Positions 8,659 through 44,151 of a stretch of 64,000 bases of DNA are shown piece after piece (within the stretch, counting starts at the first letter, position 1; every line of letters begins with the position of its first letter). Under the pieces are notes generated by a model that did not search any database, was not told the origin of the DNA, and was given only the letters and a program-made list of their open reading frames with translations. This DNA is from Bacteroidaceae bacterium (GTDB lineage Bacteria > Bacteroidota > Bacteroidia > Bacteroidales > Marinilabiliaceae). Location: assembly GCA_963618945.1 (NCBI GenBank), contig CAVETY010000007.1, forward strand, positions 4,486 to 68,485. The letters run 5' to 3'. The position numbers and the translations under genes were made by a program.

Positions 8659-8943
8659 TTAGTCGCTGCAAGAGGCTTCCAATTCGGTAAGAATCTTCAT
8701 CGCCTCATCATTTGTATCGCCACAAAAGAGGCGTTCGGCCTTAAATCCATCGCAAACCTTTGGCCTGTCTGGACTACCGAATATTGCGCACAGGTTGTCC
8801 TCTGTCAAATTTACGCACCGGACACCTCCAGGCTTTCCATTTGGATGACCAGGGATAGGTGAGCTTATCGATATGCATATGCAACAAGCGCCACACCCTA
8901 CCCTACAGTCGAAAAACTCGCCAGCCTCGTGAACCTTACTCAT
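8659..8943 (-). CDS. YkgJ-family cysteine-cluster (putative Fe/Zn-binding) protein
   Basis: 94-aa ORF with CRVGCGACCIC plus further Cys residues (VRCVN, NLCAIF, KVCDGF, LFCGD), typical of the UPF0153/YkgJ family. Confidence 0.6.
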   Translation of the reverse strand: MSKVHEAGEFFDCRVGCGACCICISISSPIPGHPNGKPGGVRCVNLTEDNLCAIFGSPDRPKVCDGFKAERLFCGDTNDEAMKILTELEASCSD

Positions 8944-9893: not shown

Positions 9894-10005
9894 AATGGTA
9901 TGAATTATAGCCACGACCTTACCCCAAGAAAAGATGAGCAGGCATTGGCGGTTAGCAATGTACAAAAGAAAAGGGCGGGGTCTACGTGACCTCGCCCAAT
10001 ATATG

Positions 10006-10089
10006 TGCCCAAGACAGGACTCGAACCTGCACCTCATTGCTGAGACTAGTCCCTGAAACTAGCGCGTCTACCGATTCCGCCACTTGGGC
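10006..10089 (-). tRNA. tRNA-Leu (anticodon CAG), class II with long variable arm
   Basis: The reverse complement GCCCAAGTGGCGGAATCGGTAGACGCGCTAGTTTCAGGGACTAGTCTCAGCAATGAGGTGCAGGTTCGAGTCCTGTCTTGGGCA folds as a cloverleaf. The anticodon loop is TTCAGGG. No CCA is encoded. Confidence 0.9.
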
Positions 10090-10102: not shown

Positions 10103-10110
10103 CAAAATTA
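10103..10110 (-). promoter_or_regulatory. -7 promoter box (TAATTTTG on minus strand) for tRNA-Leu
   Basis: Exact TAnnTTTG match, 14 nt upstream of the mature tRNA 5' end. Confidence 0.45.
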
Positions 10111-10198: not shown

Positions 10199-10954
10199 TT
10201 AGCGATTTTTACGCCCCAATAAAGAGAGCACGCCATTTACGAATGTCAGCGGATGAACAGGATTACCCGGGACGTAGAGGTCGACATGCAGACCATCAAG
10301 GACCGAGCGTCGGAGAGCAGCCGAGCCTGCAAAAATACCGCCCGAAATAGCCTCCGTACCAGCCAAAATAAGAATCTTAGGATCCGGCACAGAGTTATAC
10401 GCCTCAAGAAACGGCTCAGCCATATTCTCTGATATTGGACCGGTGAGGACAATTCCGTCAGCATGCCTTGGTGACGCCACGAAATCTATGCCAAAACGGC
10501 CGATGTCAAAATTGACATTGCCTGTCGCATTTAGTTCCATCTCGCAGCTGCCATCGCCGCCAGCTGAAACCTCCCTCAATTTAAGAGAACGGCCGAAAAG
10601 GCGTCGAACCTCAGAACGAATCTTATCAGGGTCGACCAGCACAGGATTGTTTGAACCAGCCTTCACAATTAGCGCTTCACGGACGTTGGAAGCTATGTGA
10701 TAGTCCTTGGTAAACCTTATCTTGTCGGGAGCCGCAAACATACACTCTCCGCAAAAAGTGCAACGACCGAGGTCGATGGAGAGCGGCGAACTCGTGATGG
10801 CTTCAGTCGGGCACAAGTCAACAAGGGAGGCCTCATCAACTGCGGCATCCGAAATCTCGGGACGACCGCGGAAAACGCCTGGGACATCCGTAGTCGTCAC
10901 ATCAGTTATATATTGCTTGCCCTGATGAAGCCAGATTTTGAAAGAATCAAACAT
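10199..10954 (-). CDS. Hydrogenase-3/complex-I small-subunit-like protein (HycG/NuoB fold) with N-terminal half-ferredoxin; Fe-S ligands mostly lost
   Basis: SPRHADGIVLTGPIS, ISGGIF and DLYVPGNP align to the NuoB/HycG motifs SPRHAD..TG, GxCxxSGGIF and PGCPP. The N-terminus carries CPTEAI ... CTFCGEC. Confidence 0.8.
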   Translation of the reverse strand: MFDSFKIWLHQGKQYITDVTTTDVPGVFRGRPEISDAAVDEASLVDLCPTEAITSSPLSIDLGRCTFCGECMFAAPDKIRFTKDYHIASNVREALIVKAGSNNPVLVDPDKIRSEVRRLFGRSLKLREVSAGGDGSCEMELNATGNVNFDIGRFGIDFVASPRHADGIVLTGPISENMAEPFLEAYNSVPDPKILILAGTEAISGGIFAGSAALRRSVLDGLHVDLYVPGNPVHPLTFVNGVLSLLGRKNR

Positions 10955-10994
10955 TTAGAAGCAGAAAGCTAAAAAGAGAAACCGCACAAGGAGA

Positions 10995-12485
10995 TTAAAG
11001 GTCATGACCGCAATAGCTCAGGTCAAAGCTCTTGTTGCAAATGGGGAAGTCGGATATGCCATTACCACGCACAGCCATCGCAAGTCCCATCCAATTGTGG
11101 ACAGACGGGTCAACGACCTTGTATAGAGACAATTTGCCGGCGGCATCAGTCTGAGCCACATGGACACAGACTCCACGCCACCCCTCTACTGCGGACAGGC
11201 ACATCTTTCCTGGTTGCAGGGATGAAATTTGCACCTTTTCGCGCAGATCTGACTTAGGTTGCGAAGCTATGAGCCTACGGATGTTATCGATAGACTGGAG
11301 AACCTCCTCATAGCGAACCCTTGCACGCGCATAGACATCGCCAGATTGCTTGACAACAGGCTCAAAGGCCATCTTGCCGTAGAGGAGATACGGGTGTGAC
11401 GCTCGGACATCCCTTGCCACCCCCGACGCCTTGGCTGCCATGCCCTCAAGACCAAGCCTCTGGGCCAACTCTGTGCTTACTACGCCTGTGCGCTCAATTC
11501 GCGACAACACGGACGGCAAATCAAACATCTGGGCAGCCATCTCACGGAAATCAGGCTCAAAGGCCTCGACCGTCTTGAGCCATTCTTCAGCCAACTGGTT
11601 CGTGAAAGCGAAATTGGTGTACCCCGGCCTAATCAGACTCTTCGCAAAACGGCTTCCACACCATTTTTGGAAGAAATTGATCATGGGTGTACGCAGACGA
11701 CCGAAGACCGCATTACCCAACTGGTAAGCGATGTCCGTACAAATGGCCGACAAGTCACCAGTGTGAACAGCGATACGCTCATGCTCAAGAGCAACCGTGC
11801 GATCGAAAGACAACATAGGGTCTACGTCAACACCTGCGAGCGCCTCATACAGCAGAGCGAACGCCGTGGCATGACCTACGACGGTATCACCAGCAATGTT
11901 TTCGGAGACAGTGGCACGCTGCAGCAGCTTCTCCTTCGCCAACATGACATCCTCGACACCGCGATGCTGCCATCCAAGCTGAATCTCAAGATGGTGGATT
12001 TTCTCGCCCTCACAGATAAAGCGGAAATGACCCGGCTCTATGATACCTGCGTGAATTGGGCCGACGCCAACACGGTGAAACTCCTCGCTCTCAACATTGA
12101 AAAACGGATAGTCGTATATGTCTCCGCCTGATTTTCGTCCATGACTGAAACGCAATGGTTTGAGCCATGGATGATTAGAGAAACCGATGCCAGTGGACTC
12201 ATGTATGTCGCGTTCAAAAGCATGGAGTTCCGGGCGTTCGGCAGTCATTGACATGAGCGTGCACCCTTCACTCACTTTCGAGCCATACACCTCTATAGCC
12301 TTAGCGGCGTCATCCGCAATGAAAGCGTAGAGAGCAAGAGAACCGCCTCCAAGAGGCTGAGCAAAATAGGAGAGGCAATGAATCGACTGCGCCCCAAGAC
12401 GCGACAAGACAACCGTGTAGAAGTCAGAATAATCCAACAACTCCACACTCTCGGTGTCGAAAGCCTGCCCGTTTTGAATAATCAT
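10995..12485 (-). CDS. Group-4 [NiFe]-hydrogenase large-subunit-like / NuoC-NuoD-like protein lacking the NiFe cysteine ligands
   Basis: GPIHAGIIEPGHFRF and LEIQLGWQHRGVE match the HycE/EchE/NuoD core, and the N-terminal region is NuoC-like (HAFERDIHESTGIGFSNHP). The CxxC ligand motifs are replaced (IAGDTVVGH; DLSYCGHDL at the C-terminus). Confidence 0.8.
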   Translation of the reverse strand: MIIQNGQAFDTESVELLDYSDFYTVVLSRLGAQSIHCLSYFAQPLGGGSLALYAFIADDAAKAIEVYGSKVSEGCTLMSMTAERPELHAFERDIHESTGIGFSNHPWLKPLRFSHGRKSGGDIYDYPFFNVESEEFHRVGVGPIHAGIIEPGHFRFICEGEKIHHLEIQLGWQHRGVEDVMLAKEKLLQRATVSENIAGDTVVGHATAFALLYEALAGVDVDPMLSFDRTVALEHERIAVHTGDLSAICTDIAYQLGNAVFGRLRTPMINFFQKWCGSRFAKSLIRPGYTNFAFTNQLAEEWLKTVEAFEPDFREMAAQMFDLPSVLSRIERTGVVSTELAQRLGLEGMAAKASGVARDVRASHPYLLYGKMAFEPVVKQSGDVYARARVRYEEVLQSIDNIRRLIASQPKSDLREKVQISSLQPGKMCLSAVEGWRGVCVHVAQTDAAGKLSLYKVVDPSVHNWMGLAMAVRGNGISDFPICNKSFDLSYCGHDL

Positions 12486-12498
12486 TACCGTCAGAGGA

Positions 12499-12732
12499 TC
12501 AGTGATTGCAAACTTTGGTCTTGTCTACAGTGAAGCCAAGTGATTCGGCCGGCATGAACTTTCCCCTTGCCTCAAGGAAGTCAACAAGCTCGGCAGCCGT
12601 CATATCCTCAGCAGAGCAAGTGTAAAAACGCTCATCAGGGCCGAACTTAGAGATTATGGCTTCAACGAGCTCCTGCCTGTTGGCGTAGCTATTACCCTCC
12701 ATCATTTGGAGCACCTCATGACCATGTGTCAT
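12499..12732 (-). CDS. YecH-family (DUF2492-like) small metal-binding protein
   Basis: 77 aa running from MTHGHEVLQMMEG to TKVCNH. It has an N-terminal HxH, a central FYTCSAEDMTAAELVDFL and a C-terminal CxH, as I remember for E. coli YecH-like proteins. Start moved to ATG 12730-12732, because the track extension overlaps tRNA-Asp. Confidence 0.7.
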   Translation of the reverse strand: MTHGHEVLQMMEGNSYANRQELVEAIISKFGPDERFYTCSAEDMTAAELVDFLEARGKFMPAESLGFTVDKTKVCNH

Positions 12733-12753
12733 TACTGTAAAATTATATTTTGG

Positions 12754-12761
12754 CAAAATTA
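12754..12761 (-). promoter_or_regulatory. -7 promoter box (TAATTTTG on minus strand) for the yecH-like/hydrogenase-like operon
   Basis: Exact TAnnTTTG match, 22 nt upstream of the ATG at 12732. It overlaps the T-tract of the tRNA-Asp terminator. Confidence 0.45.
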
Positions 12762-12795
12762 AAAAAGTCGCCCAATAGAAGACTACTGAGCGACT
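12759..12795 (-). terminator. Terminator after the tRNA-Asp pair
   Basis: Stem agtcgc (12766-12771) / gcgact (12790-12795), followed on the minus strand by TTTTTTAATTTT. Confidence 0.45.
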
Positions 12796-12804
12796 AAAAC
12801 TTGT

Positions 12805-12881
12805 TGGCGGTGAGGACGAGGCTCGAACTCGCGACCCCATGCGTGACAGGCATGTATTCTAACCAACTGAACTACCCCACC
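12805..12881 (-). tRNA. tRNA-Asp (anticodon GTC), copy 1, with genomically encoded CCA
   Basis: The reverse complement is GGTGGGGTAGTTCAGTTGGTTAGAATACATGCCTGTCACGCATGGGGTCGCGAGTTCGAGCCTCGTCCTCACCGCCA. The anticodon loop is CTGTCAC. Confidence 0.92.
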
Positions 12882-12979
12882 ATAAGTTTTTTTTCAAGAA
12901 ATAAGCGGTGAGGACGAGGCTCGAACTCGCGACCCCATGCGTGACAGGCATGTATTCTAACCAACTGAACTACCCCACC
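12808..12979 (-). repeat. Tandem direct duplication of the 74-nt tRNA-Asp unit (period 98 nt)
   Basis: Identical 74-nt strings at 12808-12881 and 12906-12979. Confidence 0.9.
12906..12979 (-). tRNA. tRNA-Asp (anticodon GTC), copy 2, no encoded CCA
   Basis: The 74-nt body is identical to copy 1. The 3' flank reads CTTATT instead of CCA. Confidence 0.92.
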
Positions 12980-13061: not shown

Positions 13062-13069
13062 CAAAGTTA
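13062..13069 (-). promoter_or_regulatory. Candidate -7 promoter box (TAACTTTG on minus strand) for the tRNA-Asp pair
   Basis: Exact TAnnTTTG match, 83 nt upstream of tRNA-Asp copy 2. The distance is long, so confidence is low. Confidence 0.3.
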
Positions 13070-41117: not shown

Positions 41118-42491
41118 CTACGCCTTGCCATTACGCCTCAGCTTCTCGGCGAAACGGTCAATCCTGTGAAGCTCCTTGGGAATGTCAATGCGCTGTGGAC
41201 AGTGAACCATGCAACGGCCGCAACCGATGCAATAGGTGGCCTGACGCAGCTTAGGCACACTGCGATCATAGCCCACAAGGAAGACACGCCTATTCTCCTC
41301 ATACGCCTTGCGGGCTACTGGATCGGCAGCGTCAACATCCTCAACATGTGGCATATGACCTTCGTTTATGCACTTATTATAGTGCAAAAGGTTGGCTGGA
41401 ATGTCTATGCCATAGGGACAAGGCATACAGTATTTGCAATCATTGCATGGTATCGTGTTAAAGCTGACAATCTCACGCGCAACATCCTCAAGGAAGTCAA
41501 AATCAGAGTCTGATAAGACATCCAAAGGACAATAGGAGACGAGATTATCACGAAGATGCTCCATGTATGTCATGCCACTGAGCACGGTCAGCACTCCTGG
41601 GAAGGAGCCTGCGTAACGGAAAGCCCAAGAGGCCACGCTTCGACTTGGCTCACGCTCCTTCAGCCTTTGCGCCACGTGAGTGTTTACCTTGGCGAGTCGT
41701 CCACCCAAGAGCGGCTCCATGATGACGGACGGGATGCCACGTTTTTGCAACTCGCCATAGAGATACTCGGCATTCGTATTTCTGTCATTTATCTCTTTCG
41801 CATGATGCCAATCAACGTAATTGAGCTGAATCTGCACAAAATCCCAATGACATTCGTCATGACGCGACAAAAGGTAATCAAACACCTCAATGTCACCATG
41901 GTAAGAGAAACCGAGATTACGAATTCGCCCGGCTTTTCGTTCCTCAAGAAGGAAATCAAGCACTCCATTGTCCTCATATCGGCCTCTATAGGCTTCCATG
42001 CCTCCCATGCCGATGCCATGCAACAACAGATAGTCAATATAGTCAGTCTGGAGTTCCTTGAATGAGTTATGGTACATTGCTATAGAGGCCTCACGACTCC
42101 ATGTCTGAGGAGCGAAATTGGACAATTTTGTAGCAATGTAATACTGGTCTCTCGGATGACGTTTAAGCGCGATGCCCGTTGCCCGTTCACTTAAGCCCTT
42201 GCAATAGGCTGGTGAAGTATCGAAATAGTTGACACCATGCTCTAACGCATAATCAACCAATCGGTTGACCATATCCTGATCTATTTCATCATTTTCATCA
42301 GTTGGCCAACGCATGCAACCATATCCAAGAATCGAGACACGATCACCTGTGGTCGGATTGGTTCGATATGTCATCGCCCCCTTCTGCTCCTCTGCCTCCT
42401 TGACATCATCATTGCCAGAAGATGAGCAGCCTGCCACAGCCACGGCGGCAGCACCTGCGCCTATCCGTTTCAGAAAATCTCGTCTCTCCAT
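41118..42491 (-). CDS. Tat-signal lipoprotein aldo/keto reductase with C-terminal 2x[4Fe-4S]-type ferredoxin domain
   Basis: Twin-arginine motif MERRDFLKRIG with lipobox AVAGC. AKR tetrad context: YFDTSPAY, IATKL and DYLLLHG. C-terminal CNDCKYCMPCP and CIGCGRCMVHCP. Confidence 0.85.
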   Translation of the reverse strand: MERRDFLKRIGAGAAAVAVAGCSSSGNDDVKEAEEQKGAMTYRTNPTTGDRVSILGYGCMRWPTDENDEIDQDMVNRLVDYALEHGVNYFDTSPAYCKGLSERATGIALKRHPRDQYYIATKLSNFAPQTWSREASIAMYHNSFKELQTDYIDYLLLHGIGMGGMEAYRGRYEDNGVLDFLLEERKAGRIRNLGFSYHGDIEVFDYLLSRHDECHWDFVQIQLNYVDWHHAKEINDRNTNAEYLYGELQKRGIPSVIMEPLLGGRLAKVNTHVAQRLKEREPSRSVASWAFRYAGSFPGVLTVLSGMTYMEHLRDNLVSYCPLDVLSDSDFDFLEDVAREIVSFNTIPCNDCKYCMPCPYGIDIPANLLHYNKCINEGHMPHVEDVDAADPVARKAYEENRRVFLVGYDRSVPKLRQATYCIGCGRCMVHCPQRIDIPKELHRIDRFAEKLRRNGKA

Positions 42492-42528
42492 ATCAGCAAA
42501 AATATCTAAAGAATAATACCGACTACTT

Positions 42529-44151
42529 TTAGTTCACCCTGTGATTTTCATGGCCCTCGACATAGATTGCGCTCAAAGGCCGTGTGGGGCAAACATGTTC
42601 GCACGCTCCACAGCCGATGCAACGATCCTCGTGGACTGCAGGAATGCGCAAATCAGGATTGTCAGGATGTTTAACCATTGCGATAGCGCCCATGGGGCAG
42701 TGGCGTGCGCAGTTACCACACTTCACACCCTCCGCATTTACGACGCACCTGTCCGCCACCCAAACGGCGTGACCAATCACAATAGAGCTTTTCTCGGACA
42801 AATCAATATGTTCAATTGCCCCCGCAGGGCAAACAACCGAACAAACATTACACTCCGGCCTACAATAGCCTCGCTCGTAGCTCATGCGAGGCTGCATGAA
42901 AGTGGCGAGGTCAGACGATGGACGCAACACCCCATTGGGACATTTGGCGACACAGACCTGACACCCCGTGCATCGCCTACTGAACTGACGAAGACTCCGC
43001 GCTCCTGGTGGCACAAGGGGAACCTCCCTACGTGAAGGCTTTTTATCCTCAATAATGGCGAGACCGCCATCAGCGACCTTATCCTCCTGAGATTTTACAG
43101 CGGAAGCAGCCACTAACCCAATCCCGACCAAAAACGCACGTTTAGAGACATCAGCTGTTGGGGCTTCAGATGATTGACTATCCTCAGTTTGACCTTCGGC
43201 CGAGGTCACTTTATCATTTAAATGCCTCTTATAGCGAATTGTATATGAAATGGCACCTTTCCGACAATTATCAATACAGTTAAAGCAAGTGACGCAACGG
43301 GAACCATCAATCTCCTGTCCTTTCTCCCTTGGACCATTGATTTTAATACAGGCTGCCTTACAATTCTTTTCACACATTTTGCACCCTACACACTTAGAGC
43401 TGTTAATCACAGGCGCAAAAAGAGAAAACTTAGCTACATAGCCAAGAATGGTACCCACGGGGCAAATAGTATTGCAATAAGTCCTACCATTACGCCATGC
43501 AAGGACGGCAACCGCCACGAAAGTAACTAACGCAACAATAAAAACGGGCAAAGACCGCAACCAAATGTCGGACCTACTAAAAGTATAGTCATCAAAAGAT
43601 TCAGACCCGAAAGCCAAGAGATTGTTGAGTAATTGATATAACGGCTGAAAAAGGTTCTGCGCTATCCTACCAAAAGAGCTGTAGGGGGCAAGGAGGGCAA
43701 CGACACTGCCAAGCCCAACAACCATGGCCAAGATAAAAACAAATAGCACAACAAGCCTCAAAACAGTCTTTGCAGGAGAATATGAATACCTGCGTTTGCG
43801 GGCTCGGAGTCCGAGACGACCAAAGAGATCCTGCAGAAGTCCCATTGGACAGATGACCGAACAATAAATGCGGCCGAAGAGGAGAGTCAGCAGGACAATG
43901 ACAGAGACTACGATGAAATTACCAGCCATAAAAGCTGGTAGAATTTGAATATGCGTCAGCCAATGTAAATGCTCAGCGGCAAATCCGCTCACATCGACAA
44001 ACAAAAACGTTATGGCGGCAAGCATTAGGATGCCTAAAATCATTCGTATGATGCGCAGCATATTCATTACTCTGGTTTTTTGATTTGCTAATGTAGTCAA
44101 AAGAGAAATCAGGAGGAATACCCAAATTACATTATTGCCATTATTCGACAT
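42529..44151 (-). CDS. Membrane polyferredoxin: NapH-like (CX3CP, 4 TM, 2 clusters) fused to NapG-like (4 clusters) module
   Basis: CSVICPMG and CNTICPVG follow TM pairs. Next come CVGCKMCEKNC and CVTCFNCIDNC, then SKRAFLVGIGLVAASAV. The last part has LVPPGA..CTGCQVCVAKCP, CRPECNVCSVVCP, KCGNCARHCP and CIGCGACEHVCP, as in NapG. Alternative starts are at ATG 44067 and 44061. Confidence 0.8.
   Translation of the reverse strand: MSNNGNNVIWVFLLISLLTTLANQKTRVMNMLRIIRMILGILMLAAITFLFVDVSGFAAEHLHWLTHIQILPAFMAGNFIVVSVIVLLTLLFGRIYCSVICPMGLLQDLFGRLGLRARKRRYSYSPAKTVLRLVVLFVFILAMVVGLGSVVALLAPYSSFGRIAQNLFQPLYQLLNNLLAFGSESFDDYTFSRSDIWLRSLPVFIVALVTFVAVAVLAWRNGRTYCNTICPVGTILGYVAKFSLFAPVINSSKCVGCKMCEKNCKAACIKINGPREKGQEIDGSRCVTCFNCIDNCRKGAISYTIRYKRHLNDKVTSAEGQTEDSQSSEAPTADVSKRAFLVGIGLVAASAVKSQEDKVADGGLAIIEDKKPSRREVPLVPPGARSLRQFSRRCTGCQVCVAKCPNGVLRPSSDLATFMQPRMSYERGYCRPECNVCSVVCPAGAIEHIDLSEKSSIVIGHAVWVADRCVVNAEGVKCGNCARHCPMGAIAMVKHPDNPDLRIPAVHEDRCIGCGACEHVCPTRPLSAIYVEGHENHRVN

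What the first reader, a model, noticed from the sequence alone, without database searches (positions are those of the whole stretch)
10199..12761. Stand-alone three-gene hydrogenase-like module (YecH-like metal binder + HycE/NuoCD-like + HycG/NuoB-like) with the catalytic and proximal-cluster ligands gone and no membrane, Hyp or protease partners
The three co-directional genes have 13-nt and 40-nt gaps and share one candidate promoter at 12754-12761. They encode a 77-aa HxH...CxH protein, a 496-aa group-4 [NiFe]-hydrogenase/complex-I Q-module large subunit and a 251-aa small subunit. Known relatives (Hyc, Hyf, Ech, Mbh, Mbx, Ehr, Nuo) all work with membrane antiporter-like subunits, and true hydrogenases also need hyp genes and a C-terminal protease. 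None of these is in the window. The operon is bracketed by tRNA genes (Asp x2 upstream, Leu downstream) and by housekeeping genes. The NiFe cysteines and 3 of the 4 NuoB-type cluster cysteines are substituted (see the two findings below), so it can be neither a hydrogenase nor a normal quinone reductase module. The ORFs are nonetheless intact and tightly coupled, which argues for a retained and different function. Possibilities include a soluble metal-handling, sensing or maturation complex. I do not know of a characterised function for such a soluble, Cys-depleted pair.
Basis: partly seen in the sequence, partly recalled or inferred. Interest (0 to 1): 0.8.

Follow-up and report, generated by a model that had tools for sequence, protein, structure and literature searches.

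The report
Split-off cap of Ehr membrane complex
The two "hydrogenase-like" genes are the peripheral subunits (EhrL/EhrS) of the already named but functionally unknown Ehr membrane complex; their four membrane-subunit genes have simply moved to another place in the genome, so this is not a free-standing soluble module.

Summary
Three co-directional minus-strand genes (YecH/DUF2492 77 aa, HycE/NuoCD-like 496 aa, HycF+HycG/NuoB-like 251 aa) have gaps of 13 and 40 nt. The NiFe cysteines and 3 of the 4 proximal-cluster cysteines are gone. The window holds no hyp, protease or membrane-subunit genes.

The "stand-alone soluble module" reading does not hold. The pair belongs to the Ehr family (energy-converting/Ech-hydrogenase-related complex), which occurs in more than 598 species. 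In 72 of 76 sampled loci ehrL-ehrS directly follow ehrA-B-C-D (HyfB-, HycD-, HyfE- and HyfF-like membrane subunits). In one Bacteroidales subclade the operon is split. In the sister species (EhrL 90% identical, same flanks) a single 533,657-bp contig carries yecH-ehrL-ehrS and an intact ehrABCD operon about 143 kb apart. Both halves are under strong purifying selection.

YecH is a lineage-specific neighbour: it is absent from 80 Ehr loci, and none of 65 YecH loci elsewhere has Ehr genes.

A secondary point is that Bacteroidota EhrS keeps exactly one ferredoxin-type [4Fe-4S] site, whereas other phyla keep three. Its Ehr is therefore probably not an electron-transfer enzyme.

Verdict: a known but uncharacterised kind, in a new genomic and cofactor variant. 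Interest is moderate.

The parts
12754..12761 (-). Candidate Bacteroidetes-type -7 promoter box (TAATTTTG = TAnnTTTG) for yecH-ehrL-ehrS
   Evidence: Sequence read. It lies 22 nt upstream of the yecH ATG and right after the tRNA-Asp terminator hairpin. The motif occurs 48 times in the window against 34 +/- 6 expected by chance, so it is only a candidate.
12766..12795 (-). Terminator-like hairpin plus T-run that ends the tRNA-Asp unit and separates it from the yecH unit
   Evidence: 13-bp stem followed by TTTTTTAATTT.
12499..12732 (-). yecH: 77-aa YecH/DUF2492 protein with N-terminal HGH and C-terminal CNH motifs
   Evidence: PF10678 at 8.4e-28. TIGR03853 scores 96.1 bits against a cut-off of 65.7. 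Invariant residues are H3, H5, C39, C75 and H77. The AlphaFold model has pLDDT 81.5 and a three-helix plus hairpin fold, with no significant PDB match.
10995..12485 (-). ehrL: 496-aa Ehr large subunit (NuoC-like N-terminal domain plus HycE/NuoD-like domain) without NiFe ligands. It ends at the residue equivalent to the HycE processing site.
   Evidence: PF00346 at 1.7e-33. HycE 7z0s_E matches at E 1.4e-33 by sequence and TM-score 0.82 over 495 columns by fold. Motifs IAGDTVVGH and CNKSFDLSYCGHDL are conserved. dN/dS is about 0.03 against the sister species, and 27 synonymous to 6 non-synonymous codon differences are seen within the species.
10199..10954 (-). ehrS: 251-aa Ehr small subunit. It is a fusion of a HycF/NuoI-like half-ferredoxin (residues about 20-100; Cys48, 65, 68, 71) with a HycG/NuoB-like domain (about 110-247) whose proximal-cluster ligands are D134, C137, E201 and N231.
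   Evidence: PF01058 at 1.3e-17. HycG matches at 4e-21. The HycF match covers residues 28-116 at 1.5e-7. Within the species there are 13 synonymous and 0 non-synonymous differences.
10005..10089 (-). tRNA-Leu(CAG) downstream of ehrS, with its own TAATTTTG box at 10103-10110. It is context and not part of the module.
12805..12979 (-). Two tRNA-Asp(GTC) genes upstream, with a candidate box TAACTTTG at 13062-13069. They are context and not part of the module.

Best explanation
The 496-aa and 251-aa genes encode EhrL and EhrS. These are the cytoplasm-facing cap of an Ehr complex, a Hyf/FHL-like, complex-I-related membrane machine that is not a hydrogenase.

In most bacteria the cap genes are the last two of a six-gene operon:
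- ehrA (HyfB/NuoL-like)
- ehrB (HycD/NuoH-like)
- ehrC (HyfE-like)
- ehrD (HyfF/NuoN-like)
- ehrL
- ehrS

In the Bacteroidales lineage of this window the operon has been split. ehrLS became their own transcription unit, and in this genus they sit behind yecH. ehrABCD lie elsewhere on the chromosome. The proteins are therefore expected to assemble on EhrABCD at the membrane and not to act as a soluble pair.

Shown here:
- Family membership and the loss of the NiFe and proximal-cluster ligands.
- The operon architecture in relatives.
- Both halves on one contig in the sister species.
- Purifying selection on both halves.
- Conserved TM5-Glu, TM7-Lys and TM12-Glu in EhrA and EhrD.

Inferred:
- The window's own genome also carries ehrABCD.
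- The six proteins form one complex.
- The complex translocates ions.
- Because Bacteroidota EhrS keeps ligands for only one isolated ferredoxin-type [4Fe-4S] cluster and EhrL has an invariant Asp/Thr/His/Ser/Asp/Arg pocket in place of the NiFe site, the cap acts as a non-hydrogenase and probably non-electron-transfer coupling or regulatory module for the membrane arm.
- YecH is a lineage-specific, co-transcribed small metal-binding protein and not a core subunit.
For: Family and fold:
- EhrL's best solved relative is HycE of the membrane-bound FHL complex (E 1.4e-33, TM-score 0.82, full length).
- EhrS's best solved relative is HycG, and its N-terminus matches HycF.
- Subunit-by-subunit best E. 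coli matches are EhrA-HyfB (7e-92), EhrB-HycD/HyfC, EhrC-HyfE and EhrD-HyfF. Pfam gives Proton_antipo_M, NADHdh and Oxidored_q2.

Operon architecture in relatives:
- The GTDB scan found at least 598 species in many phyla, including Geobacter/Geomonas, where the cluster was named Ehr (PMC7894505).
- 72 of 76 loci have the membrane genes directly upstream, and 66 of 70 have ehrS directly downstream.

Split series within Bacteroidales:
- L089: full operon, EhrL 63% identical to the window's.
- L095: ehrLS divergent from ehrABCD.
- L087 and L084: ehrLS alone.
- L093 and L096-L105: ehrABCD alone.
- L081, L091/92 and L106: yecH-ehrLS with the window's flanks.

Same-contig proof:
- Contig NODE_1_length_533657 holds yecH-ehrLS at 136-148 kb and ehrABCD at 281-293 kb.
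- A second contig of 429,770 bp also carries both an EhrL and an EhrD.

Window species:
- MAGs of the same series as the window species carry ehrBCD 92-99% identical to the sister's, with the same downstream synteny.
- Nucleotide divergence is comparable: 79% for these MAGs against the sister, and 82% for the window against the sister.

Selection:
- dN/dS is about 0.03 for EhrL/S and 0.01-0.05 for EhrA-D.

Other:
- Charged transmembrane residues are conserved in EhrA/D.
- The most invariant EhrL segments (138-152 and 481-496) are the ones AlphaFold cannot place in the monomer (pLDDT below 50). This fits interface elements that need partner subunits.
Against: - ehrABCD could not be shown in the very genome the window comes from. 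The window protein itself is not indexed, and the MAG accessions that carry ehrD differ from the two seen for ehrLS.
- No experiment anywhere shows that EhrL/S bind EhrABCD, or what Ehr does.
- Separate transcription units could allow an independent role for the pair.
- In window-species MAGs the contigs break inside ehrA, and one MAG shows a shortened ehrB. Strain-level decay of the membrane half cannot be excluded.
- dS is saturated in the between-species comparisons.
Confidence: 0.78

Rival explanations
1. The pair, with or without YecH, is a truly autonomous soluble complex that took on a new role after separating from the membrane genes. Such a role could be metal handling, sensing or maturation.
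For: - The unit has its own candidate promoter and a preceding terminator.
- It is flanked by housekeeping genes.
- The split arrangement is stable across lineages with 66-100% EhrL identity.
- A metal-binding-family protein has been recruited 10-13 nt upstream.
Against: - The sister species keeps an intact, strongly constrained ehrABCD on the same contig.
- EhrL/S of split genomes are no more diverged than those of operonic genomes (66% against 63-64%). They keep every family-invariant motif, including the beta1-beta2 loop.
- YecH is absent from the other split lineages.
- All structural relatives are subunits of membrane complexes.
Confidence: 0.1
2. YecH is a dedicated functional partner of EhrLS in this genus. 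It could be a metallochaperone for a new metal site in the Asp/His-rich pockets, or a small metal-responsive winged-helix regulator of the downstream genes. It would then be more than a neighbour.
For: - The gap is 13 nt here and 10 nt in L081, and the arrangement is kept in three species-level lineages.
- YecH is under purifying selection.
- The HxH and CxH motifs are invariant.
- Elsewhere YecH sits directly upstream of redox or metal proteins: a glutaredoxin-like protein in 30 of 67 loci and a DUF1858-DUF438-hemerythrin-PAS protein in 11 of 67.
- The model is helix-helix-helix-hairpin with weak similarity to MntR, Zur and ArgR winged-helix domains.
Against: - No YecH occurs in 80 Ehr loci from many phyla.
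- No Ehr gene occurs within 6 kb in 65 YecH loci.
- Split ehrLS without yecH exist at 75% and 66% identity.
- All fold matches are non-significant (best E 0.2, TM-score at most 0.5).
- The residues that replace the Cys ligands in EhrL/S are the same in genomes without YecH.
Confidence: 0.25
3. The pair is an evolutionary remnant on its way to becoming a pseudogene after loss of the membrane arm.
For: Catalytic and cluster ligands are lost, and the membrane genes are absent from the window.
Against: - The ligand loss is ancient and shared by all Bacteroidota Ehr, including full operons.
- The ORFs are intact in every relative.
- dN matches that of the housekeeping neighbours.
- Within the species the synonymous to non-synonymous counts are 27:6 for EhrL and 13:0 for EhrS.
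Confidence: 0.02
4. EhrL/S dock onto another membrane arm, for example the 11-subunit NUO of Bacteroidales, and not onto EhrABCD.
For: Only general homology with NuoCD and NuoB.
Against: - The cognate ehrABCD is retained and constrained.
- NuoB/NuoD NCBIfam scores are far below the cut-offs.
- There are no nuo genes in the window.
Confidence: 0.03

Closest known systems
Ehr (Ech-/energy-converting-hydrogenase-related) complex, e.g. Geobacter sulfurreducens GSU0739-0745 (EhrA-D, EhrL, EhrS). Named by Coppi and co-workers and surveyed by Marreiros et al. 2013. Cited in PMC7894505, PMC6349859, PMC10284858 and PMC5037454.
   Same: - The large subunit is related to group-4 hydrogenases but lacks the CxxC NiFe ligands.
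- The small subunit is HycG/NuoB-like.
- Relatives show the same six-gene order, with NuoL-, NuoH-, HyfE- and NuoN-like membrane subunits.
- Geobacter/Geomonas loci fall in the same family.
- The function is unknown.
   Different: - Here ehrLS are separated from ehrABCD (about 143 kb apart in the sister species) and sit behind a yecH gene.
- The Bacteroidota small subunit has lost the proximal cluster and one of the two ferredoxin clusters. The Geobacter-type and other phyla keep all 12 Cys.
E. coli hydrogenase 4 / formate hydrogenlyase (HyfBCEFGHI; HycCDEFG; PDB 7z0s), [NiFe] group 4a
   Same: - These are the best sequence and fold matches for every subunit.
- The large subunit has the same NuoC-NuoD fusion.
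- The EPGHFR loop, the EGWRG Arg and the Asp of the DPC motif are retained.
   Different: - There are no NiFe Cys, no C-terminal extension for HycI-type processing, and no hyp or hycI genes nearby.
- There is no HyfA/HycB, HyfD or formate dehydrogenase partner.
- HycF and HycG are fused into one protein with only one cluster site.
Respiratory complex I Q-module (NuoB + NuoCD) and Mbx/MBS of Pyrococcus
   Same: The fold is the same, and so is the position on a NuoH-like plus antiporter-like membrane arm. The NiFe site has been replaced by another pocket.
   Different: - The N2 ligands are absent.
- The positions aligned with the quinone-binding Tyr and His of NuoD are Gly199 and Ile149.
- NCBIfam NuoB and NuoD scores are far below the cut-offs.
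- There is no electron-input module.
YecH family / DUF2492 (TIGR03853 'matur_matur', E. coli YecH)
   Same: The 77-aa protein has HxH and CxH motifs and scores above the curated cut-off.
   Different: No function is known for the family. Its adjacency to Ehr genes is specific to this clade.

Membership tests
Ehr complex | Large subunit homologous to group-4 [NiFe]-hydrogenase large subunit / NuoD | tested here: met
   PF00346 at 1.7e-33. HycE matches at E 1.4e-33. Foldseek TM-score is 0.82 to 7z0s_E.
Ehr complex | The four NiFe-binding cysteines (L1 CxxC, L2 CxxC) are absent | tested here: met
   CGIC becomes AGDT and DPCxxC becomes DLSyCG. The same holds in all 67 family members aligned.
Ehr complex | HycG/NuoB-like small subunit encoded next to the large subunit | tested here: met
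   PF01058, with a 40-nt gap. 66 of 70 related loci show the same arrangement.
Ehr complex | Encoded in one cluster with NuoL/N-like, NuoH-like and HyfE-like membrane subunits | tested here: not met
   None of these genes is in the 64-kb window. The feature is met in 72 of 76 related loci. In the sister species the four genes lie on the same contig about 143 kb away. Their presence in the window's own genome is inferred from MAGs and not shown.
Ehr complex | Same family as the Geobacter cluster for which the name was coined | tested here: met
   Geomonas limicola (L048) and Geobacter sp. (L059) loci were found with the family profile. They are 41-42% identical to the window's EhrL and have the same gene order. 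The G. sulfurreducens protein itself was not aligned.
[NiFe]-hydrogenase group 4 | L1 (RxCGxCxxxH) and L2 (DPCxxCxxH/R) metal-binding motifs | tested here: not met
[NiFe]-hydrogenase group 4 | Four Cys for the proximal [4Fe-4S] cluster in the small subunit | tested here: not met
   The positions are D134, C137, E201 and N231. C137 is itself variable, being Thr in L081.
[NiFe]-hydrogenase group 4 | Maturation apparatus: hyp genes, an endopeptidase, and a C-terminal extension of the large subunit | tested here: not met
   There is no HypA-E or HycI homologue in the window. EhrL ends at the residue aligned with HycE R537. The rest of the genome was not examined.
Complex I Q-module (NuoB/NuoD) | N2 cluster ligands in NuoB, and curated NuoB/NuoD model scores | tested here: not met
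   Three of the four Cys are gone. The NuoB model NF005012 scores 79.5 against a cut-off of 116. The NuoD model NF004739 scores 150 against a cut-off of 360.
Complex I Q-module (NuoB/NuoD) | Quinone-ligating Tyr (Tyr87 in T. thermophilus Nqo4) and His (His38) of NuoD | tested here: inconclusive
   In the MAFFT alignment with E. coli NuoCD these positions are Gly199 and Ile149. The alignment is at about 20% identity, and the residue numbering was recalled from memory.
YecH / DUF2492 (TIGR03853) | Score above the curated cut-off, N-terminal HxH and C-terminal CxH | tested here: met
   The score is 96.1 bits against a cut-off of 65.7. H3, H5, C75 and H77 are invariant in 14 sequences.

The most novel reading that the evidence does not exclude
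Bacteroidota Ehr is a complex-I-like ion-translocating machine that has given up electron transfer altogether. It keeps one isolated [4Fe-4S] cluster, has no proximal cluster and has no NiFe or quinone site. Under this reading it uses the invariant polar pocket of EhrL (Asp200, Thr201, His205, Ser490, Asp495 and the retained Arg437) for a non-redox job. That job could be ligand- or ion-gated, or chemically driven, ion transport, in the way CupA or DabA couple CO2 hydration to antiporter-like subunits. Splitting ehrLS from ehrABCD and adding YecH would then give this genus separate, possibly metal- or redox-responsive, control of the cap.
Probability: 0.2. Interest if true: 0.75.

Novelty: new variant of a known kind. 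Interest (0 to 1): 0.4.

Why it matters
Ehr complexes are found in hundreds of species across many phyla. They have been called a "missing link" between group-4 hydrogenases and complex I, yet nobody knows what they do.

This locus does not reveal a new soluble enzyme. The comparison it prompted gives two usable handles.
1. Gut and rumen Bacteroidales carry a natural split version, with cap genes and membrane genes in separate operons. This makes independent genetic manipulation and co-expression tests easy.
2. The Bacteroidota form has cleanly lost two of its three Fe-S sites while keeping the membrane arm's charged residues and the invariant ex-NiFe pocket. This argues that the conserved function of Ehr may not be electron transfer.

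There is also an annotation point. These genes are currently labelled "NADH-quinone oxidoreductase subunit C/D/B", "Ni,Fe-hydrogenase III large subunit" or "hydrogenase-4 component". Metabolic reconstructions of gut Bacteroidales should not count them as hydrogenase or as NDH-1.

Tried and rejected
- Literature on YecH/DUF2492/TIGR03853: nothing functional was found. One search was wasted on word-start matching.
- Marreiros 2013 is not held in the library.
- A search for Prevotella or Bacteroidales hydrogenase-4-like genes found no papers.
- The exact-sequence look-up of the window's EhrL is not on record. The window's own assembly therefore could not be traced. Cluster mates gave GCA_963654135.1 and GCA_963621385.1.
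- Matching contig lengths to link ehrD and ehrL failed for the window species but worked for the sister species, with contigs of 533,657 and 429,770 bp.
Close relatives had to be reached through the protein collection.
- YecH against the PDB gave no match by sequence and only non-significant winged-helix-like matches by fold.
- I looked for YecH's usual partners in the window (the glutaredoxin-like protein and the DUF438-hemerythrin-PAS protein) and found none.
- I looked for the neighbours of ehrABCD in the window (CoaE, acyltransferase, SDR, DUF2520) to test for a clean deletion. None were present, so this was uninformative.
- Rejected: pseudogenisation, because of the selection data.
- Rejected: true hydrogenase and complex-I Q-module, because of the ligand checks.
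- Not run: the representative-library HMM search and an EhrS structure prediction. No permitted EhrS homologue set was available, and coordinates are not returned in any case.


Full report
**1. What is in the sequence**

The minus strand of 10199-12761 carries three intact, co-directional ORFs:
- a 77-aa ORF at 12499-12732
- a 496-aa ORF at 10995-12485
- a 251-aa ORF at 10199-10954

The gaps between them are 13 and 40 nt. Two tRNA-Asp genes lie upstream at 12805-12979, and tRNA-Leu lies downstream at 10005-10089.

Between the second tRNA-Asp and the first ORF there is a terminator-like hairpin at 12795-12766, followed by TAATTTTG at 12761-12754, 22 nt before the ATG. This fits the Bacteroidetes -7 consensus TAnnTTTG. 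The motif is common, with 48 matches in the window against 34 +/- 6 expected by chance, so it is only a candidate promoter. Similar boxes precede the tRNA units at 13062-13069 and 10103-10110.

Family matches:
- 77-aa protein: DUF2492/YecH, above the curated cut-off.
- 496-aa protein: Complex1_49kDa.
- 251-aa protein: Oxidored_q6, plus a weak Fer4 match at the N-terminus.

The flanks are housekeeping genes. tblastn with E. coli HycA-I, HypA-E and NuoCD-N finds nothing else relevant in the window.

**2. Ligands**

HMMER alignments to the solved E. coli FHL subunits give the following.
- HycE C241/C244 (CGIC) is AGDT here. The C-terminal DPCySC is DLSyCG.
- In HycG, three of the four proximal-cluster Cys are replaced by Asp134, Glu201 and Asn231. 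Only Cys137 remains.
- EhrL ends exactly at the residue aligned with HycE R537, the site after which HycI cleaves (from memory). There is no extension to process.
- The positions aligned with the quinone-binding Tyr and His of NuoD are Gly199 and Ile149. This alignment is at low identity, so the result is tentative.
- NCBIfam NuoB and NuoD models score far below their cut-offs.

The protein pair is therefore neither a hydrogenase nor a standard Q-module.

The small subunit is more than NuoB-like. Residues 28-116 match HycF, and four Cys (48, 65, 68, 71) remain.

**3. The family**

The large subunit has thousands of relatives. The close ones are 495-503 aa and are annotated "NADH-quinone oxidoreductase subunit C" or "Ni,Fe-hydrogenase III large subunit". 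In an alignment of 15 of them, the motifs that replace the NiFe ligands (IAGDTVVGH and CNKSFDLSYCGHDL at the end) are essentially invariant.

A scan of one genome per GTDB species found at least 598 species. They include Bacteroidota, Spirochaetota, Verrucomicrobiota, Melainabacteria, Desulfuromonadota (Geobacter, Geomonas), Planctomycetota, Elusimicrobiota and Ignavibacteria.

In the 80 loci fetched:
- ehrS follows ehrL in 66 of 70 loci with enough sequence downstream.
- 72 of 76 loci with enough sequence upstream have co-directional membrane genes directly upstream. These are about 660 aa, sometimes a second of about 676 aa, then about 300, about 210 and about 475 aa.

Pfam and BLAST identify the membrane genes as Proton_antipo_M (best match HyfB), NADHdh (HycD/HyfC), a HyfE-like protein, and Proton_antipo_M (HyfF).

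This is the six-gene Ehr cluster described for Geobacter sulfurreducens: EhrA NuoL-like, EhrC HyfE-like, EhrL and EhrS (GSU0739-45; PMC7894505). The literature treats the class as follows.
- It is described as "energy-converting hydrogenase-related complexes" that lack the NiFe ligands (PMC6349859, PMC7304191).
- Its function is stated to be unknown (PMC10284858).
- HydDB deliberately excludes it from the hydrogenases (PMC5037454).

**4. Why the genes look stand-alone here**

Within Bacteroidales there is a graded series of arrangements.

| Locus | EhrL identity to window | Arrangement |
|---|---|---|
| L089 (Marinilabiliaceae) | 63% | full operon |
| L095 | 64% | ehrLS divergently transcribed from ehrABCD |
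| L087 | 66% | ehrLS alone, no yecH |
| L084 | 75% | ehrLS alone, no yecH |
| L081 | 76% | yecH-ehrL-ehrS with the window's flanks (PAP2-RsmE-FtsY and Dus); in L091/92 and L106 a PPIase gene follows Dus as in the window |
| L091/92 (window species) | about 99% | same as L081 |
| L106 (sister species) | 90% | same as L081 |

Conversely, ehrABCD-only operons are common in gut Bacteroidales contigs (L093 and L096-L105).

The decisive result concerns the sister species. The same contig (NODE_1_length_533657) carries yecH-ehrL-ehrS at 136-148 kb and ehrA-B-C-D at 281-293 kb. A second contig, of 429,770 bp, also carries both an EhrL and an EhrD of these clusters.

For the window species the evidence is indirect. 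MAGs from the same assembly series carry ehrB, ehrC and ehrD that are 96%, 99% and 92% identical to the sister's, with the same downstream genes. Their nucleotide divergence from the sister is 79%, similar to the 82% between the window and the sister.

A 64-kb window could not have shown the partner operon.

**5. Constraint**

Between the window and the sister species:
- dN of EhrL, EhrS and YecH is 0.047-0.063, which equals that of the housekeeping neighbours (0.029-0.068).
- dN/dS is about 0.03-0.04, although dS is saturated.

Within the species the synonymous to non-synonymous codon differences are 27:6 for EhrL, 13:0 for EhrS and 3:0 for YecH.

EhrA-D show dN/dS of 0.01-0.05. EhrA and EhrD keep the canonical TM5 Glu, TM7 Lys and TM12 Glu of antiporter-like subunits. 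EhrA also keeps the TM8 Lys.

Both halves are therefore maintained, and the remnant hypothesis is rejected.

**6. Cofactors across the family**

In non-Bacteroidota members EhrS has 12 conserved Cys. This is enough for two ferredoxin-type clusters plus the proximal cluster.

In Bacteroidota members, whether operonic or split, exactly eight are gone.
- The survivors are the fourth Cys of motif 1 (Cys48) and the first three Cys of motif 2 (Cys65, 68, 71).
- By the established ligation pattern of 2x[4Fe-4S] ferredoxins, these form one complete cluster.
- By homology this is the NuoI N6b-like cluster, the one next to N2. That assignment is from memory.
- The proximal-site positions are consistently Asp, Cys (variable), Asp/Glu and Asn.

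In EhrL of all phyla, Asp200, Thr/Ser201, mostly His205, Ser490, Gly493 and Asp495 are conserved. So are the Arg of EGWRG and the Asp/Asn of the former DPC motif, which hydrogenases also have.

It is not a consequence of becoming "soluble".

**7. Structure**

The AlphaFold model of EhrL has pLDDT 80 and pTM 0.86. It superposes on HycE of the FHL complex over its whole length, with a TM-score of 0.82. The next matches are NuoCD and NuoD of complex I and then MbhL.

The segments modelled with pLDDT below 50 include 138-152 (the invariant GVGPIHAGIIEPG loop) and 481-496 (the invariant C-terminus). These are what one expects for elements that become ordered only against partner subunits. This is an inference.

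**8. YecH**

- No YecH is present in any of the 80 Ehr loci.
- In 65 metagenomic YecH loci (64-78% identical, with at least 1.6 kb downstream) no Ehr gene lies within 6 kb.
- The usual downstream neighbours are a 98-aa glutaredoxin/thioredoxin-like protein (30 of 67 loci) and a DUF1858-DUF438-hemerythrin-PAS_10 protein (11 of 67 loci).
- YecH often sits just after tRNA genes.
- The model has pLDDT 81.5 and consists of three helices plus a hairpin. It has only non-significant similarity to winged-helix domains such as ArgR, MntR and Zur.

YecH is therefore a lineage-specific addition to the ehrLS unit. A functional link, as a metal donor or as a small regulator, remains possible but is unsupported.

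**9. Mechanism, as far as it can be committed to**

Most likely (about 0.78): EhrL and EhrS assemble on EhrB and the antiporter-like EhrA/EhrD, as HycE/F/G do on HycD/C. The complex is an ion-translocating membrane machine.

In Bacteroidota the cap cannot pass electrons along a chain. It has one isolated cluster, no proximal cluster, and no NiFe or quinone site. The cap therefore probably serves as a non-redox coupling or regulatory element, or carries out an as yet unknown reaction in the conserved polar pocket. This last step is inference.

Many non-Bacteroidota loci have an HTH_17 plus PTS-EIIA(Ntr)-type regulator gene directly upstream of ehrA. This hints at ion or nutrient-state control more than at respiration.

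**10. Verdict**

The "stand-alone soluble triad" interpretation is not. The genes are members of a known but uncharacterised kind (Ehr), in a new variant with three features:
- a split operon
- an added yecH gene
- a reduced set of Fe-S sites

Interest is moderate. The headline claim fails, but the open question of what Ehr does becomes somewhat more tractable.

Noticed in passing
L034:4347-5024 and the equivalent gene in L035, L043, L045, L048, L050, L053, L056, L059, L063, L064, L069, L074, L077: In many non-Bacteroidota Ehr loci a protein of about 225 aa, with an HTH_17 domain and a PTS EIIA-2 (EIIA-Ntr-like) domain, is encoded directly upstream of ehrA. It may be a dedicated regulator, which hints at control by ion or nutrient state.
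   Followed up: partly
L115-L194 (YecH loci from metagenomes): YecH genes are most often followed by a 98-aa glutaredoxin/thioredoxin-like protein (CPDC motif; 30 of 67 loci) or by a DUF1858-DUF438-hemerythrin-PAS_10 protein of about 490 aa (11 of 67 loci). Many lie directly downstream of tRNA genes (His, Thr, Gly, Ser), as yecH does here behind tRNA-Asp.
   Followed up: partly
L195, L196, L198, L199 (MAGs likely of the window species): All four contigs end inside ehrA. In L195 ehrB is called as only 226 aa, with an 83-aa antisense ORF before it. In L197 the ehrC region is called as 134 aa. This could reflect assembly breaks at a repeat or IS element, strain variation, or frameshifts in the membrane half.
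   Followed up: no
L031 (Prevotellaceae MAG), L047 (Cytophagales MAG), L033 (Rikenellaceae MAG): ehrL is present without a detectable ehrS downstream. In L031 and L047 no membrane genes are in the locus either. These may be further rearrangements or decay of Ehr in some Bacteroidota.
   Followed up: no
window 41118-44151 (minus strand): A 540-aa poly-ferredoxin protein (several Fer4 dicluster domains plus Fer4_5) lies next to a 457-aa aldo/keto reductase with a C-terminal Fer4 domain. This Fe-S redox pair is unrelated to the Ehr genes and is the only other hit of the HycF/NuoI/HycB queries in the window.
   Followed up: partly
window 8659-8943 (minus strand): A 94-aa CxxCxxCC (PF03692, putative Zn/Fe-chelating) protein lies directly downstream of dus. 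The same small gene follows dus in L081.
   Followed up: no
window 12805-12979, 13062-13069 and 10103-10110: The two tRNA-Asp(GTC) copies appear near-identical in sequence. TAnnTTTG boxes precede the tRNA-Asp pair and tRNA-Leu, so the region seems to consist of three separate small transcription units.
   Followed up: partly
L093:9889-10341: In one Bacteroidales contig a Y1 (IS200-like) transposase gene sits immediately after ehrD, where ehrL would be in the ancestral operon. This may be a trace of how the operon was split.
   Followed up: no
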